64,000 nucleotides of DNA from Octopus vulgaris. Taxonomy: Eukaryota. The notes under the pieces were generated by a model that did not search any database, was not told where the DNA came from, and saw only the letters and a list, made by a program, of their open reading frames with translations. The position numbers and the translations under genes were made by a program. Below, piece by piece: positions 13,515 to 30,200 of the stretch; within the stretch, counting starts at the first letter, position 1, and each line of letters starts with the position of its first letter. Location of the stretch: positions 1,550,001-1,614,000 of the forward strand of contig OX597821.1 in the NCBI GenBank assembly GCA_951406725.2. Reading direction: 5' to 3'.

Positions 13515-14320
13515 GAGCAGGAGTGGCTCTGTGGTTATTGACAGACCAAAGTGGCCTCCGCAGGTGGCTGCTCTGCTACTGGAAAGAAATGAGTTATTTC
13601 ATACATCAGGCTCCTCCTCAAGGGAGGATTATAGATTACTTTCTTGGTACCCCGACTTGCGGATGCAGGGGTGCCTGCAGGTCGCAAGAGAATTAATCGG
13701 GGACTTGAGGTATGGGGTTCATCGCCTCAATATGTGTCTCATGTTTTAAATTGTAATGGACTTCTTAGTCCAAATAATTGTAAAATAATGTAAATTATAA
13801 GAGGGTTATTACTTCAAGATGTGTCTTTTCAAAAGAATAATGTTATAGAGAAGCAGAGAGTCGGCGGGCGCTTTCTGTCTTCTCTCAACCTTATCATCTT
13901 GTATTATTATCATTTGCCTCATCAATGTCTTGTCCAGCCCACAAAGCTACCAATCTTTGTACTGCCTCTATGGCAAATGAAATGAAATAAAGTAGCTTGC
14001 TTACCAGCAATATGGTTCTGGATTCAGTCCCACTACGTGGCGCCTTGGGCAAGTTTCTTCTATTATAGCCTCGGGCCGATCAAAACCTTGTGAGTGGATT
14101 TGGTAGACGGAAACTGAAAGAAGACCGTCATATATATATATGTGTGTGTGTACATGTTTGTATGTCTGTGTTTATCCACACTCCATCGCTAGACAACCGA
14201 TAATAGTTACGTCCCCGTATCTTAGTGGTTCGACAAAAGAAAACGATAGAAGTACTAGGCTTACAAATAATAAGTCCTTCATGGCCGCAGTCAAATGACT
14301 GAAACAAGTAAAAGAATAAT
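13515..14320 (+). mobile_element. SINE family A interrupted by a 454-bp insert
   Basis: Head gcaggagtggctctgtggt ends at 13535; the SINE resumes with aagtagcttgcttacc at 13990. Confidence 0.8.
13536..13989 (+). mobile_element. Unclassified retro-insert (probable LINE 3' end) in the SINE-A head
   Basis: Splits SINE-A at GTGGT^AAG; ends in gaaatgaaataa; no clear TSD. Confidence 0.55.
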
Positions 14321-15401
14321 AGAATCAAAGAATACAGGCAGACCCCCCACACACACACACACACGCGCGCGCACACATGCACATAAACATACGCACGCAC
14401 ACACACACACACACACACACGCACACACACACACACTGAGTTTTATTCAAATGTATATAATCTTTTTGTCAACAACAGGCCAATATTTACAGGCACATAT
14501 AAATAAAATGTGGCGGCAAAAAATGTAAACAAAAACACAGAGACATGTGAACATACACGTACTCACATACACTTTCTTTCACTCTTTCTCCCCCTAACGG
14601 ACGATCACACACACACACAAGCACACGCACACGCTCGCAGGCACAGACACGCACGCACGCACGCACGCACGCACAGGGGGCCCAAACGTATGTACAAACA
14701 ATGTGCACATATACAAACTACACAGAAATACAAGCACAAACAGTCAAATAGACTCACTATCCAGAGCGGATCTTGAAATTATGTGAAATGTTTTATGTGT
14801 CCAATGAATTTAAACAGAGCTAATCGAATTAATCCGACAAATATCGGTAGAATAATTAAAAGACAGCAAAAGCAAAGAAAAAGAGATTATTATTCCAAAG
14901 CAATCTAAAAATATGTCTAATTCGGAGGCATTGGCAAAATAAATAGATAACAAAGAATTGTAAAACGTCGTAACGGAACGGAAATTGCAGTCTTCGAAAA
15001 CATAGTCAAAACTAAGCTAGGTTAGGACTTCTTCTTCCTAAAGTGGTTCTATTGAAGTCTTGTATAAATACGAAGACAATGAAGAATTCTAACCGCGACT
15101 AATATGAATATTAACTGAATTCAATGTGATAGTATGCTGTTTATTATGTTTAAAGAACTGAAAATGAAGCCGGCGTGGATAGCTATAGAATTCAACTTAA
15201 AATGAGGCCAAGCGGAATCGAATTACAGTTTGAGAAAAAAATGTATTAAAATTTAGTGTTATTGCAAAGCATTATAGAGGAGGTATGTGTTTAAGACGTT
15301 TGCTATGATAGACCGTGCTATTGCGTTCGATTCCACTGTATGGCATATATCCGGTCACTGCTTTCTGCCATAGCCTCGAGTCTAGCGGGGTCTTGTGAAT
15401 A

Positions 15402-15620
15402 CGAGGTGGGGTGCTGAAATGCTCCTGGCTTTAAGGGTATCTCGAAAATCTATGTTGAAGGCTCAACCTTCCAAATTCTTTTACAGGACTTAGAAAAACT
15501 GAAGAACCGCTGCAATAAGTGTGTGAATCTGTGAGAGGAATATGTTGAATAAAATCATAATTGACTGATCCTCCTGTGTTTTCTTTTACCCAAAGCCAGA
15601 AGCTTTTCAGCACACCCTTG
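15402..15620 (+). mobile_element. mariner-derived MITE (internal deletion derivative)
   Basis: TA on both sides; TIRs cgaggtggggtgctgaaatgctcctggctt / aagccagaagcttttcagcacacccttg; retains the transposase C-terminus KLKNRCNKCVNL*EEYVE*. Confidence 0.8.
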
Positions 15621-16185
15621 TATATTATATTCTCCTCATCATCATGAGTTTTATGTATCGTATGGCTGGTTACCCGTTGATATGGCGTATAACTGACCAG
15701 CAGTGCAATACTCATCCTGAAACGAATGCCAGTCTCATGCAATGTTACTCTCCTCCTCCCCCTCTCACTATTCAATGACATCTGTATGTATAAAAGCCAG
15801 GATGTGTGTGTATGTATGTGTGTGTACGTCAATGTAATTTATCCACGTCCACAAATTAGCACGCATGCCGCTCCAATTTTAGGAGGACATTCGTCATCAT
15901 CCTCGCTGTATTTTCGTCAACTTATTTTCCCCAGAGGCACCAGCGAATAGCAGTAAAATTAAATTTTCAACCAAAACTTTTAGCAATTTTCAAGTCGGAG
16001 AAATCACCATTGTTTGCAAACAGGAGTAAATTTTTGTTAAGATTTTTGTTGCTTTTTTTCCATCGAGGTAAAAAGTGTTTTGTTGATATACGGGCAACAC
16101 ACACACACACGAACATGTTTGCGTACAAAAAACATGTATGGAATAGGTGTATGTATGTACGTGTGTGTATGTGTGTGTGTATTGC

Positions 16186-16245
<60 letters not shown>

Positions 16246-16329
16246 AATTTCAACGGATTTCGCCCAAATTTGACGTCGATGTTACTTTGTTTGGTTTGAA
16301 ATAAAGAACTTGATTAGCTTAATAATCCT

Positions 16330-16366
16330 AACTGATTCCTAGGCAAAGCCGAGTTATACTGCTAGT
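16330..16366 (+). mobile_element. Helitron-type 3' end
   Basis: aggcaaagccgagttatactgctagt: decayed subterminal hairpin followed by CTAG-T; similar to the ends at 29643 and 36330. Confidence 0.45.
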
Positions 16367-16904
16367 TTCTACTATTTCCAAAAGTGATTTACAAAATAAA
16401 CATTAAAAAAATCTTCCTCTAAATATTATAGCTGTTTAACCATCACGCATGCTTCATAACGTTCGGAACTGAAATACGTATTGAACTCACTCTCTCATCA
16501 CTCTCTACCATAAAAATGTTGGATATCTAGTATTTTATCAGATATTAATAAAATTTGTCGGACCGATTTTCATGCCGCCGGCCGTCGGAGATATGGAAAC
16601 TAAGTGCTCTCCAACTGCATGAAAATAGATTCGACAAATTTTATTTTTACCTTAAAAATTACTAAGAAATGCTAAATTTCAAACATATCTACACGTTTAG
16701 AGAAATTTCAAACCATAAAAATCGCACTTTAAAATAGTGCTTGGTGACATTGGTGTAATATTCATTTAAACTATGAACAGGTGTTTAGATACATACCAGC
16801 TACAACTAATAGTTGTCTGTACGGAAAGCAAGGCCCTACGTATATCATATTGTCTTTAAATTAAGTGGCGGCAGAAGAATTATCGTTGAACTTTTAAAAG
16901 GCAA

Positions 16905-27955: not shown

Positions 27956-28167
27956 TGTATGTATGTATGTATGTATGTATGCACGTCTAAAGATTCCCTA
28001 TAGTACATAATTGGAAAATGTCTTATTAAGAAATCGTGGTTTAGAACAGAAACAACTACGTTATGGAACAGTGATTTTGGCGATTATTCCAGAACGTACA
28101 GTTTCCAGAATTTATTGAAAACAGGAGCCGACACTTCTTGAATTCGCACTTAACAGTGTTTAAATGA

Positions 28168-28214
<47 letters not shown>

Positions 28215-28226
<12 letters not shown>

Positions 28227-28912
28227 GGAAGTTGTGTGAGTGTCTGTCTCCTACGATTTAGATTCCTAACTACTCCCACATTTTGCGGTGCAGTTTAACC
28301 AAATTCGGGTATCTTATAGTCGTGATTCATACGAAGCCCGTCTGGGTATTAGCGCGCGTCTACAATGAGTCTACGATTTAAAAAATTATTTACCATAATT
28401 TTTTTCCATTTTAACGCATATTTTTTAAATAAAAGGCTCACACCTGCACCTGTGTTGCTTCTCCCCCTTCTTCCCTCCCTCGTGAAGCTGTGGGGAAGGG
28501 AGTGTAAGGAAATCAAGGTCGTAAAGCGTTGTCAAGGAGACCAGCGTTCTTTTAGAACAACGACTTCATGGCTTGAAGACACCAAAACAGAAATGGCTAA
28601 GAAAGCCCGAAAGCAAATTCTACAAAATCGGGAAACACGCCACACAGGGAAGGTTTCCCGCGCAAATAATTTGCACAACCGAATGTTATAGTTGTTGCAC
28701 AACTTTTACTTAAAAAATTATCCAAACACAAACTTTATGGCGATGGTACTTGTGAAATATGGTAATGGATTTTGTAGCCAAAAGGAGAGAGCAGAGGCAT
28801 AGTATGGTGGTGGTGGAGGCGGTGGTAGTGGCAGCGGTGGAGGCGGTGGTGGCGGTGGTGCTGGTAGTGGTGATGGTGGTGGTCGTGTTTGTGGTGGTGG
28901 TGGTGGTGGTGG

Positions 28913-28943
<31 letters not shown>

Positions 28944-29668
28944 GGTCGTGGTCGTGGTGGTGGTGGTGGTGGTGATGGTGGTGGTGGTTGTCGTGGTGAT
29001 GATGGTGGTGGTTGTCGTGGTGGTGGTGGTCTTCGTGATGGTGGTGGTGATGATCATGGGCGTAGTGGTGGTGGTGGTCATGGTGGTAGTGGTGATGGTG
29101 TTGGTCGTGGTGGTGGTGGTGGCTGAAGCTGTCGTCTGGGTTCTTCCAATTTTTTCGTGTGTCGGTGGCGGCGTTGGCGTTCATGCTCGCACCTGCACCT
29201 GTGTAGCTCCTCCCCTTCTTCCCTCCCTCGTGAAGCTGTGGGGAAGGCAGGGTAGGGAAATCAACGTCGTAAAGCGTTGTCAAGGAGACCAGCGTTCTTT
29301 TAGAACAACGACTTCATGGCTTGAAGTCACCAAAACAGAAATCGCTAAAAAAGCTGAAACCAAAACCGGGCATCTTATAGTCGTGATTCATATCGAGCCC
29401 TTCTTGGTAATAACGCGCGTCTACGATGAGTCTACGATTTAAAAAAAATTACCATCATTTTTTTTCCATTTTAATGCATTTTTTCGCTATTATATTGGAA
29501 TAACTCTCTAAAAATGTCTACGATGAGTCAACGATTTAAAAAAAAATTACCATCATTTTTTATTCCATTTTTAATGCATTTTTTTGCTATTTTTTTGCTA
29601 TAACTCTCTAAAAATGCTTATCATAGTTATTTCCCTTACAAACCCGAGCTGCCGGCGATACTGCTGGA
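28215..29668 (+). mobile_element. Non-autonomous Helitron-like element with internal duplication and (GGT)n tract
   Basis: 5' tatataaa..gttgtgtgag..ctgtc; 3' cccgagc(aac)gccgg(g)cgatactgct hairpin end; internal repeats 28439-28606/29188-29354 and 28307-28420/29367-29480. Confidence 0.6.
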
Positions 29669-29691
29669 GTATATATATATATATATATATA

Positions 29692-30200
29692 CTCCACGAC
29701 TTATTCTATCGCTATCTTTAGCCGAACCGCTAGGTTACGAGGACGTAAACACACCAACAACAGTTATCAAGCATGTATATATATGTTTTCGACGGGCTTC
29801 TTTCAGTTTCGATCTACCAAATCCAATCACAAGTGTTTGGTAGGCCCCAGGCTATAGTAGAAGACTCTTGTCCAAGGTACCACGCACTGGAGCTGAACCC
29901 AAAACAATGTGGTTGGGAAACAAGCTTCTTGTTTCTTTATTGCCCACCAGGGGCTAAACACAGGGGAGATAAACAAGGACAGACAAACGGATTAAATCGA
30001 TTATATCGACCCCAGTGCGTAACTGGTATTTATTTAATCGACCCCGAAAGATTGAAAGGCAAAGTCGACCTCGGCGGAATTTGAACTCAGAACGTAAAGA
30101 CAGACGAAATACCGCTAAGCATTTCGCCCGGCATTCTAACGTTTCTGCCAGCGGTGTGGGAAACAAGCTTCTTACCACACAGCTACACCACGCCTGCCCG
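29692..30200 (-). mobile_element. SINE family A with a SINE-B inserted in its head
   Basis: SINE-B at 29931-30156 flanked by 17-bp TSD tgggaaacaagcttctt (29914-29930, 30157-30173). Confidence 0.85.

What the first reader, a model, noticed from the sequence alone, without database searches (positions are those of the whole stretch)
13515..30173. Three different retro-inserts at the same nucleotide of the SINE-A head (GTGGT^AAG)
Seen: (1) a 454-bp insert at 13536-13989, (2) the 1357-bp ORF1-only element at 17167-18523 with TSD AAGAAGCTTG(C/T)TTCCC, and (3) a SINE-B at 29931-30156 with TSD AAGAAGCTTGTTTCCCA (minus strand). All have their 3' junction immediately before AAG(A/T)AGCTTG in the A-box region; (2) and (3) are clearly co-oriented with the host SINE. 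Established: L1/Tx1 endonucleases nick T/A-rich sites and make ~15-bp TSDs, and Tx1-clade elements are often specific for multicopy RNA genes or repeats. Inference: an L1/Tx1-like enzyme here prefers this SINE (or its parent tRNA) as a landing pad and mobilises several passengers.
Basis: partly seen in the sequence, partly recalled or inferred. Interest (0 to 1): 0.7.

Follow-up and report, generated by a model that had tools for sequence, protein, structure and literature searches.

The report
Three retro-inserts share one SINE site
In an octopus-like genome, three different jumping-gene inserts end at exactly the same base of three copies of one very common short repeat, and two of them share a tail motif, which likely reflects a sequence-preferring LINE enzyme of a kind already known to aim at other repeats, though no genome-wide hotspot has been shown.

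Summary
Observation confirmed, with corrections. All three 3' junctions lie at GGT|AAG, just behind the A-box-like motif of the SINE-A head; 3 of 11 copies are filled there. Insert 1 has no target-site duplication; inserts 2 and 3 have 16 and 17 bp. The copy at 36696 is a segmental duplicate. Insert 2 carries a broken ORF1 whose relatives are Octopus proteins with two RRM-like domains plus a CCHC knuckle, fitting the Tx1 clade; no ORF2 is present. New here: inserts 1 and 2 share a 3' tail motif, and SINE-B's long tail resembles it weakly, pointing to one LINE lineage. Best reading (0.55): a Tx1-like endonuclease prefers this sequence and mobilises several cargos, as Tx1-Mar does with SINEU. 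Limits: a 7-base preference alone would do, since SINE-A supplies 11 of 31 such sites; only 1 of 9 long-tail SINE-B ends lies here; the genome-wide test was inconclusive; the enzyme was not seen.

The parts
13513..13535 (+). SINE-A head with A-box-like motif, left half of host 1
13536..13989 (+). Insert 1, 454 bp, single copy in the window, no TSD; likely the 5'-truncated 3' end of a LINE
   Evidence: no protein hit; tail motif
13950..13989 (+). 3' tail of insert 1 (short hairpin TGCC-TCTAT-GGCA, then GAAAT repeats), similar to the tail of insert 2
13990..14319 (+). Rest of host SINE-A 1 (5' module, microsatellite, 3' module)
17129..17150 (+). SINE-A head, left half of host 2
17151..17166 (+). 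Left TSD of insert 2 (16 bp)
17167..18523 (+). Insert 2, 1357 bp, ORF1-only non-LTR element: ~100 bp 5' UTR, ORF1, ~200 bp 3' part
17271..18316 (+). Broken ORF1 (in-frame stops at 17325, 17646, 17781, 18047; frameshift near 17988 in the CCHC knuckle); predicted RRM+RRM+CCHC from a relative
18484..18523 (+). 3' tail of insert 2, similar to the tail of insert 1 and weakly to the SINE-B long tail
18524..18539 (+). Right TSD of insert 2 (15 of 16 identical to the left)
18540..18895 (+). Rest of host SINE-A 2
30174..30200 (-). SINE-A head, left half of host 3
30157..30173 (-). Left TSD of insert 3 (17 bp)
29931..30156 (-). Insert 3: SINE-B, long-tail form, lacking the first ~8 nt; 86-90% identical to five other copies
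29914..29930 (-). Right TSD of insert 3 (17 of 17 identical)
29699..29913 (-). Rest of host SINE-A 3 (3' module cut short)
36696..36921 (-). Segmental duplicate of insert 3; not an independent event

Best explanation
Three different retro-inserts end at the same GGT|AAG base of SINE-A, likely because a Tx1-clade LINE enzyme prefers to nick that sequence and copies in whichever RNA carries its type of 3' tail. Shown: the shared junction, the 16-17 bp duplications, the ORF1 of insert 2 and the tail similarity. Inferred: the enzyme nicks the bottom strand at 5'-CTT|ACC-3' and primes reverse transcription on the RNA's hairpin plus A-rich tail. A second nick 16-17 nt downstream gives the duplication (inserts 2, 3); insert 1 left the target unaltered. 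Insert 2 would be an internally deleted, ORF1-keeping derivative, insert 1 a 5'-truncated copy of a related family, and insert 3 a SINE whose long tail lets it borrow the same machinery with weaker site preference.
For: Junction identical in 3 independent hosts; 3 of 11 copies filled at this base and none seen elsewhere in the 5' module. Tail of insert 2 against insert 1: 0 of 1000 shuffles reach the 3'-anchored score, 5 of 1000 the local score. Among 127,831 window positions, insert 1's exact 3' end ties for best match to insert 2's tail, and a SINE-B long tail ties for next. ORF1 relatives are Octopus proteins (4 of 10 looked up named O. bimaculoides/sinensis/vulgaris via NCBI, 2 more via UniRef). 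A relative is predicted as tandem RRM-like domains; zf-CCHC in 11 of 23 relatives; ESM look-alikes include ZCCHC3-type RBD1/RBD2+CCHC at 0.90. Precedent: Tx1-Mar and SINEU share a target transposon, with a 16-bp TSD for SINEU-3; unaltered targets occur for SINEU-2 (PMC4494074). Recently active L1-Tx1 families exist in O. vulgaris (PMC13282606).
Against: No endonuclease or RT seen, so the clade rests on ORF1 build only; RRM+CCHC is also reported for plant L1 and, from recall, for other clades. Insert 1 has no protein hit and no TSD. With insert 1's tail as query, 5 unrelated sites score higher than insert 2's end. Insert 3's own tail match is weak: 8 and 69 of 1000 anchored, 271 and 40 of 1000 local. 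Only 1 of 9 long-tail SINE-B ends lies at this site. Inserts 1 and 2 are single copies, so no family is seen twice at the site. In one search the junction was not among the 6 loose-end rows listed per run. The window was selected for the coincidence.
Confidence: 0.55

Rival explanations
1. Short-motif preference plus abundance: the enzyme recognises only a short word such as T|AAGNAG (a relaxed L1-like pyrimidine-run/A nick), and SINE-A is hit because it supplies a large share of such words. The SINE is a passive sink, not a dedicated target.
For: SINE-A heads hold 11 of 31 T|AAGNAG sites in the window, giving 0.045 for three of three. SINE-A is extremely abundant: 78,682-146,614 contigs laid per run. 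The bottom strand reads CTTCTT/AC, close to the L1 TTTTT/AA consensus (PMC8565326, abstract start).
Against: A 4-base T|AAG preference is not enough (11 of 408 sites, 2e-5), so the preference must already be fairly long, which shades into true target specificity. None of the 20 non-head T|AAGNAG sites was inspected for inserts, but the tail-motif scan found no further insert-1/2-type tail in the window.
Confidence: 0.22
2. Mixed cause: inserts 1 and 2 are targeted, but insert 3 landed by annealing of its A/G-rich tail (ending AAAGAAAT-AAGAA in another copy) to the site's AAGAA, using another LINE's enzyme.
For: The copy ending at 59015 runs tail-AGAAA into another SINE-B head; the other SINE-B tail type also joins at AGAA at 12125. 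Other SINE-B copies make 13-16 bp duplications at unrelated sites (12733, 20260).
Against: SINE-B's long tail resembles the tails of inserts 1 and 2 (copy 59017: 4 and 19 of 1000), whereas its other tail does not (274 and 617 of 1000). A second AAGAAG in the same SINE-A module (position 151) is not hit in any copy seen.
Confidence: 0.13
3. Coincidence picked out by the scan: unrelated elements with a mild T|AA bias happen to share a base in one of very many windows.
For: The window was chosen for the coincidence. Tail similarity is short and A/T-rich. No genome-wide peak was displayed.
Against: Needs a 1e-5 to 1e-7 event and, separately, tail similarity between the same inserts.
Confidence: 0.1

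Closest known systems
Tx1-Mar and SINEU in crocodilians (Kojima 2015, PMC4494074; passages, section 15 and part 3 of 5 read; supplements not readable)
   Same: LINE-derived and SINE cargos share a site inside another interspersed repeat; 16-bp TSD for SINEU-3; targets may also be left unaltered; weak-preference passenger SINEs exist (13% and 23%).
   Different: There the target is a Mariner DNA transposon, specificity was measured on hundreds of copies and the RT tree was built. Here the target is a SINE head, there are three events and no RT.
Tx1L in Tx1D (Xenopus); Keno (U2 snRNA); Kibi/Koshi (microsatellites); Dewa (tRNA-Leu spacer) (PMC4494074, PMC3706591 passages)
   Same: Tx1-clade target choice set by the endonuclease; multicopy repeat as landing pad.
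   Different: None of the targets named in the passages read is a SINE or a Pol III A-box region.
ORF1-keeping non-autonomous LINEs: HAL1, HeT-A, Ag-Sponge (PMC5786205 passages)
   Same: Insert 2 has a 5' part, ORF1 and a 3' tail, with no ORF2.
   Different: One copy only, so it may be a one-off internal deletion and not a family; it would derive from Tx1 rather than L1, Jockey or CR1.
Dada-t DNA transposons of Perkinsus (PMC3706591 passages)
   Same: Insert in the A-box region of tRNA-type promoters.
   Different: DNA transposons with a 6-bp TSD in real tRNA genes; unrelated mechanism.
Octopus tRNA-CORE SINEs (OR2; named in PMC4758252; tRNA-Core dominance in PMC8967140)
   Same: SINE-A is very abundant in the four related organisms laid and has A/B-box-like motifs by eye.
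   Different: Identity with OR2 is recalled, not tested; no SINE library was available.

Membership tests
Tx1-clade LINE (or derivative) | RT phylogeny places ORF2 in the Tx1 clade | not testable with these tools
   No ORF2 found in the window; ORF1-ORF2 fusion search blank but limited to 1092-3115 aa
Tx1-clade LINE (or derivative) | Type I ORF1 with RRM and CCHC knuckle | tested here: met
   Insert 2: (fold done on relative P0012, 29% identical); the build is not exclusive to Tx1
Tx1-clade LINE (or derivative) | APE endonuclease plus RT in ORF2 | tested here: inconclusive
   Absent from insert 2; insert 1 frames gave no hit, which a decayed C-terminal piece may not give
Target-specific non-LTR element (Kojima criterion) | More than 20% of family copies flanked by the target repeat | not tested
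Target-specific non-LTR element (Kojima criterion) | Breakpoint peak at one base of the target repeat | tested here: inconclusive
   Window: 3 of 11 copies at one base. Four public runs: junction not among the 6 loose-end rows shown per run, all of which lie at or beside places where the reference copy departs from the family
Target-primed retrotransposition product | Target-site duplication, co-orientation, A-rich 3' end | tested here: met
   Inserts 2 and 3: 16 and 17 bp. Insert 1: A-rich tail but no duplication
HAL1-like ORF1-only family | Multicopy family with the same internal deletion | not tested
Tx1-mobilised SINE (SINEU-like passenger) | Shared target preference with the partner LINE | tested here: inconclusive
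   1 of 9 long-tail SINE-B ends at the site; 5 of the 9 belong to one composite form
tRNA-derived SINE (host SINE-A) | tRNA-like head with A and B boxes | tested here: inconclusive
   A/B-box-like motifs by eye against a recalled consensus; ARAGORN 0 genes, Rfam no tRNA match

The most novel reading that the evidence does not exclude
An octopus Tx1 lineage has specialised on the Pol III promoter of one of the genome's most abundant SINEs. It cuts just behind the A box, so every insertion pushes A and B boxes 0.2-1.4 kb apart and silences that SINE copy, and the same enzyme carries truncated LINEs, an ORF1-only derivative and a rival SINE into the site: a hyperparasite that feeds on and disables another retroposon.
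Probability: 0.25. Interest if true: 0.6.

Novelty: new variant of a known kind. Interest (0 to 1): 0.38.

Why it matters
If confirmed genome-wide it adds a SINE promoter to the list of Tx1 targets and gives a mollusc parallel of the Tx1-Mar/SINEU system. Nested inserts at one base would also date octopus SINE waves relative to each other and supply a natural sequence-preferring endonuclease to characterise. The principle itself (Tx1 aiming at another mobile element and carrying SINEs there) is published, so a specialist would find it neat, not startling.

Tried and rejected
No whole genome is held. SINE-A pattern scans: 0 matches in viral, prokaryote-genome and metagenome collections. ORF1 locus search: 5 loci, all matching only the zinc-knuckle region; not used. 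Read-laying on an intact SINE-A copy, 22770-22940, 4 of 24 listed runs: the copy's own indels swamped the table; 24 loose-end rows shown, 1042 hidden; if the table keeps the best-supported rows, the junction is bounded only at under about 917, 722, 1247 and 1146 contigs, which would not exclude even a fill rate near the window's. No RNA holder listed. ORF1-ORF2 fusion search blank. Insert 1 coding identity: Pfam 0 of 6 frames, homolog search 0 of 163 candidates, ESM first hit 0.83, at chance level. A by-eye likeness of the last codons of inserts 1 and 2 to Tx1 ORF2 C-termini is recalled and untested; not counted. tblastn of 154 fetched proteins found no SINE-A read-through next to ORF1. Rfam over 13000-31000 gave only microsatellite-type noise. 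Rejected: counting 36696 as a fourth event (segmental duplicate); template-switch chimeras (the host head is present upstream in all three); a DNA transposon for insert 1 (tail motif; no terminal inverted repeat seen by eye). Literature searches that listed no report of a SINE-targeting octopus Tx1. Repbase/Dfam entries, subscription papers (Kojima and Fujiwara 2004; Ohshima and Okada 1994) and the supplements of PMC4494074 could not be seen and may hold it.
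Full report
Observation. The three junctions are as described. Each insert splits a SINE-A copy whose head lies directly upstream, and each 3' end abuts AAG(A/T)AGCTTG. Insert 2 has a 16-bp duplication with one mismatch, insert 3 an exact 17-bp duplication, insert 1 none. Eleven SINE-A copies cover the site (ten at 85-96% identity to the majority over their main part, one at 73%; more decayed copies left out); three are filled. 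I saw no other insertion in the 164-bp 5' module. The copy at 36696-36921 is part of a ~6.8 kb tandem duplication and is not counted.

Chance. Three inserts on one base have probability 3.7e-5 if all positions are equal and 2e-5 if any T|AAG is equally good (11 of 408 sites), but 0.045 if the enzyme wants T|AAGNAG, because SINE-A supplies 11 of the 31 such sites. So the window argues for a real sequence preference but cannot tell 'aims at this SINE' from 'likes a 7-base word'. The window was also selected for the coincidence.

Host. The genome is octopus-like: 6 of 10 ORF1 relatives looked up carry Octopus names, and SINE-A drew 78,682-146,614 contigs in each of four runs from four related organisms. 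The head has A- and B-box-like motifs by eye, with the junction just behind the A box. ARAGORN and Rfam do not call it a tRNA. Its identity with the octopus CORE-SINE OR2 (named in PMC4758252, passages) is recalled, not tested.

Insert 2. It holds about 100 bp of 5' UTR, a broken ORF1 (17271-18316; four internal stops and one frameshift) and about 200 bp of 3' sequence. Closest proteins are 67-74% identical; 208 cluster representatives match a relative at E<=0.001, many through the knuckle alone. zf-CCHC is found in 11 of 23 aligned relatives. A model of relative P0012 (mean pLDDT 72) matches tandem-RRM proteins (best E 6e-5; best Z 9.8, rmsd 2.4, 81 aligned), and ESM look-alikes include ZCCHC3-type RBD1/RBD2+CCHC clusters at 0.90. 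RRM/CCHC ORF1s in non-mammalian animals are described as consistent with the Tx1 clade (PMC5203782, passages), but the build is not exclusive. No ORF2 was found, so the clade is inferred. The layout parallels ORF1-keeping non-autonomous LINEs such as HAL1 (PMC5786205, passages).

Insert 1. No protein family, homolog or language-model match. Its last 40 bases resemble those of insert 2: 0 of 1000 shuffles reach the 3'-anchored score and 5 of 1000 the local score. Against all 127,831 window positions, insert 1's exact end ties for first place as a match to insert 2's tail; in the reverse search five unrelated sites rank higher. I read this as moderate evidence for a shared LINE tail and for co-orientation.

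Insert 3. SINE-B comes with two tails. The long tail resembles the tails of inserts 1 and 2 weakly (copy 59017: 4 and 19 of 1000; insert 3 itself: 8 and 69 of 1000); the other tail does not (274 and 617 of 1000). A motif written from the three tails hits only long-tail SINE-B copies and inserts 1 and 2 (11 hits; 0.61 expected per shuffled window); it was built after the fact. Of nine independent long-tail ends, one is at the SINE-A site, five run on into a SINE-B body (one composite form), one lies in a TA tract, one at a unique site with a 13-bp duplication, and one joins another SINE-B head at AGAAA. Preference is therefore weak at best, and tail-target microhomology is a live alternative.

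Genome-wide test. No assembly was available and no collection held the SINE. I laid four runs on the intact copy at 22770-22940. The six loose-end rows shown per run lie at 22791, 22825-22828 and 22868, at or beside places where that copy departs from the family; 1042 rows were hidden and counting was incomplete in three runs. The junction (22797) is not among the rows shown. The bound is too loose to count for or against a hotspot.

Mechanism. Shown: junctions, duplications, ORF1 build, tail similarity. From established knowledge: target choice in non-LTR elements is set mainly by the endonuclease, and duplication, truncation or an unaltered target can all result (PMC4494074). Inferred: a Tx1-like enzyme nicks the bottom strand at CTT|ACC, primes on a hairpin plus A-rich tail and nicks the top strand 16-17 nt on. 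I give this 0.55, a short-motif preference 0.22, a mixed cause for insert 3 0.13, and coincidence 0.10.

Comparison. It works like Tx1-Mar/SINEU, where LINEs and SINEs share a site in a Mariner element, SINEU-3 has a 16-bp TSD, and passenger SINEs range from 13% to 90% on target. Membership is not established: the RT tree and the over-20% flank criterion could not be tested. My searches listed no report of this site; the O. vulgaris annotation (PMC13282606, part 1 of 3 and supplement search) lists 80 L1-Tx1 families, and what I read says nothing of their targets. PMC8967140, PMC11203168 and PMC3706591 were read as passages only. Repbase and older papers were out of reach. Earlier notes of this scan describe similar SINE-site cases in other genomes; they are unchecked AI notes, suggest the pattern is recurrent, and add no support.

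Verdict. Real, more than naive chance, most likely a sequence-preferring Tx1-like system with a SINE head as target: a new variant of a known kind, resting on three events. Interest 0.38.

Noticed in passing
window 22794-22812 (and other TTACC-type SINE-A copies): In the AAGT/TTACC subfamily the target is a near-palindrome, so GGT|AAG also occurs on the minus strand 13 nt away. The insert without a duplication sits in this subfamily; the two with 16-17 bp sit in the non-palindromic TTCCC subfamily.
   Followed up: no
window 26200-39070: Tandem duplication of about 6.8 kb (94-99% identical) near an N gap at 32295-32394; may be real or an assembly duplication.
   Followed up: partly
window 12170-12427, 20090-20479, 57627-58100, 58830-59430: Composite SINE-B forms: head-body-long tail, then a second body and a different tail; suggests one SINE-B once landed in another and the read-through unit spread.
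   Followed up: partly
window 30208-30282: Just upstream of insert 3's host there is a second SINE-A head fragment and an inverted SINE-A fragment.
   Followed up: no
window 48350-49185: Insert with terminal inverted repeats and a transposase-like frame (48448-48852) in the TA tract of another SINE-A copy; Tc1/mariner-like by recall.
   Followed up: no
window 17161-17180 and 18473-18490: The 5' end of insert 2 resembles both the host continuation (CACATG) and a stretch 50 nt before its own 3' end; may be chance or annealing at the 5' junction.
   Followed up: no
protein P0009: A 46%-identical ORF1 relative is embedded in a Helitron-like predicted protein (PIF1, Helitron_like_N); flanks unknown, so neutral for target choice.
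   Followed up: no
window 8836-9276: Open frame that looks like a DNA-transposon remnant by recall.
   Followed up: no
window 22129-22260: A third SINE-like family with its own A/B-box-like head begins right after a SINE-A fragment.
   Followed up: no
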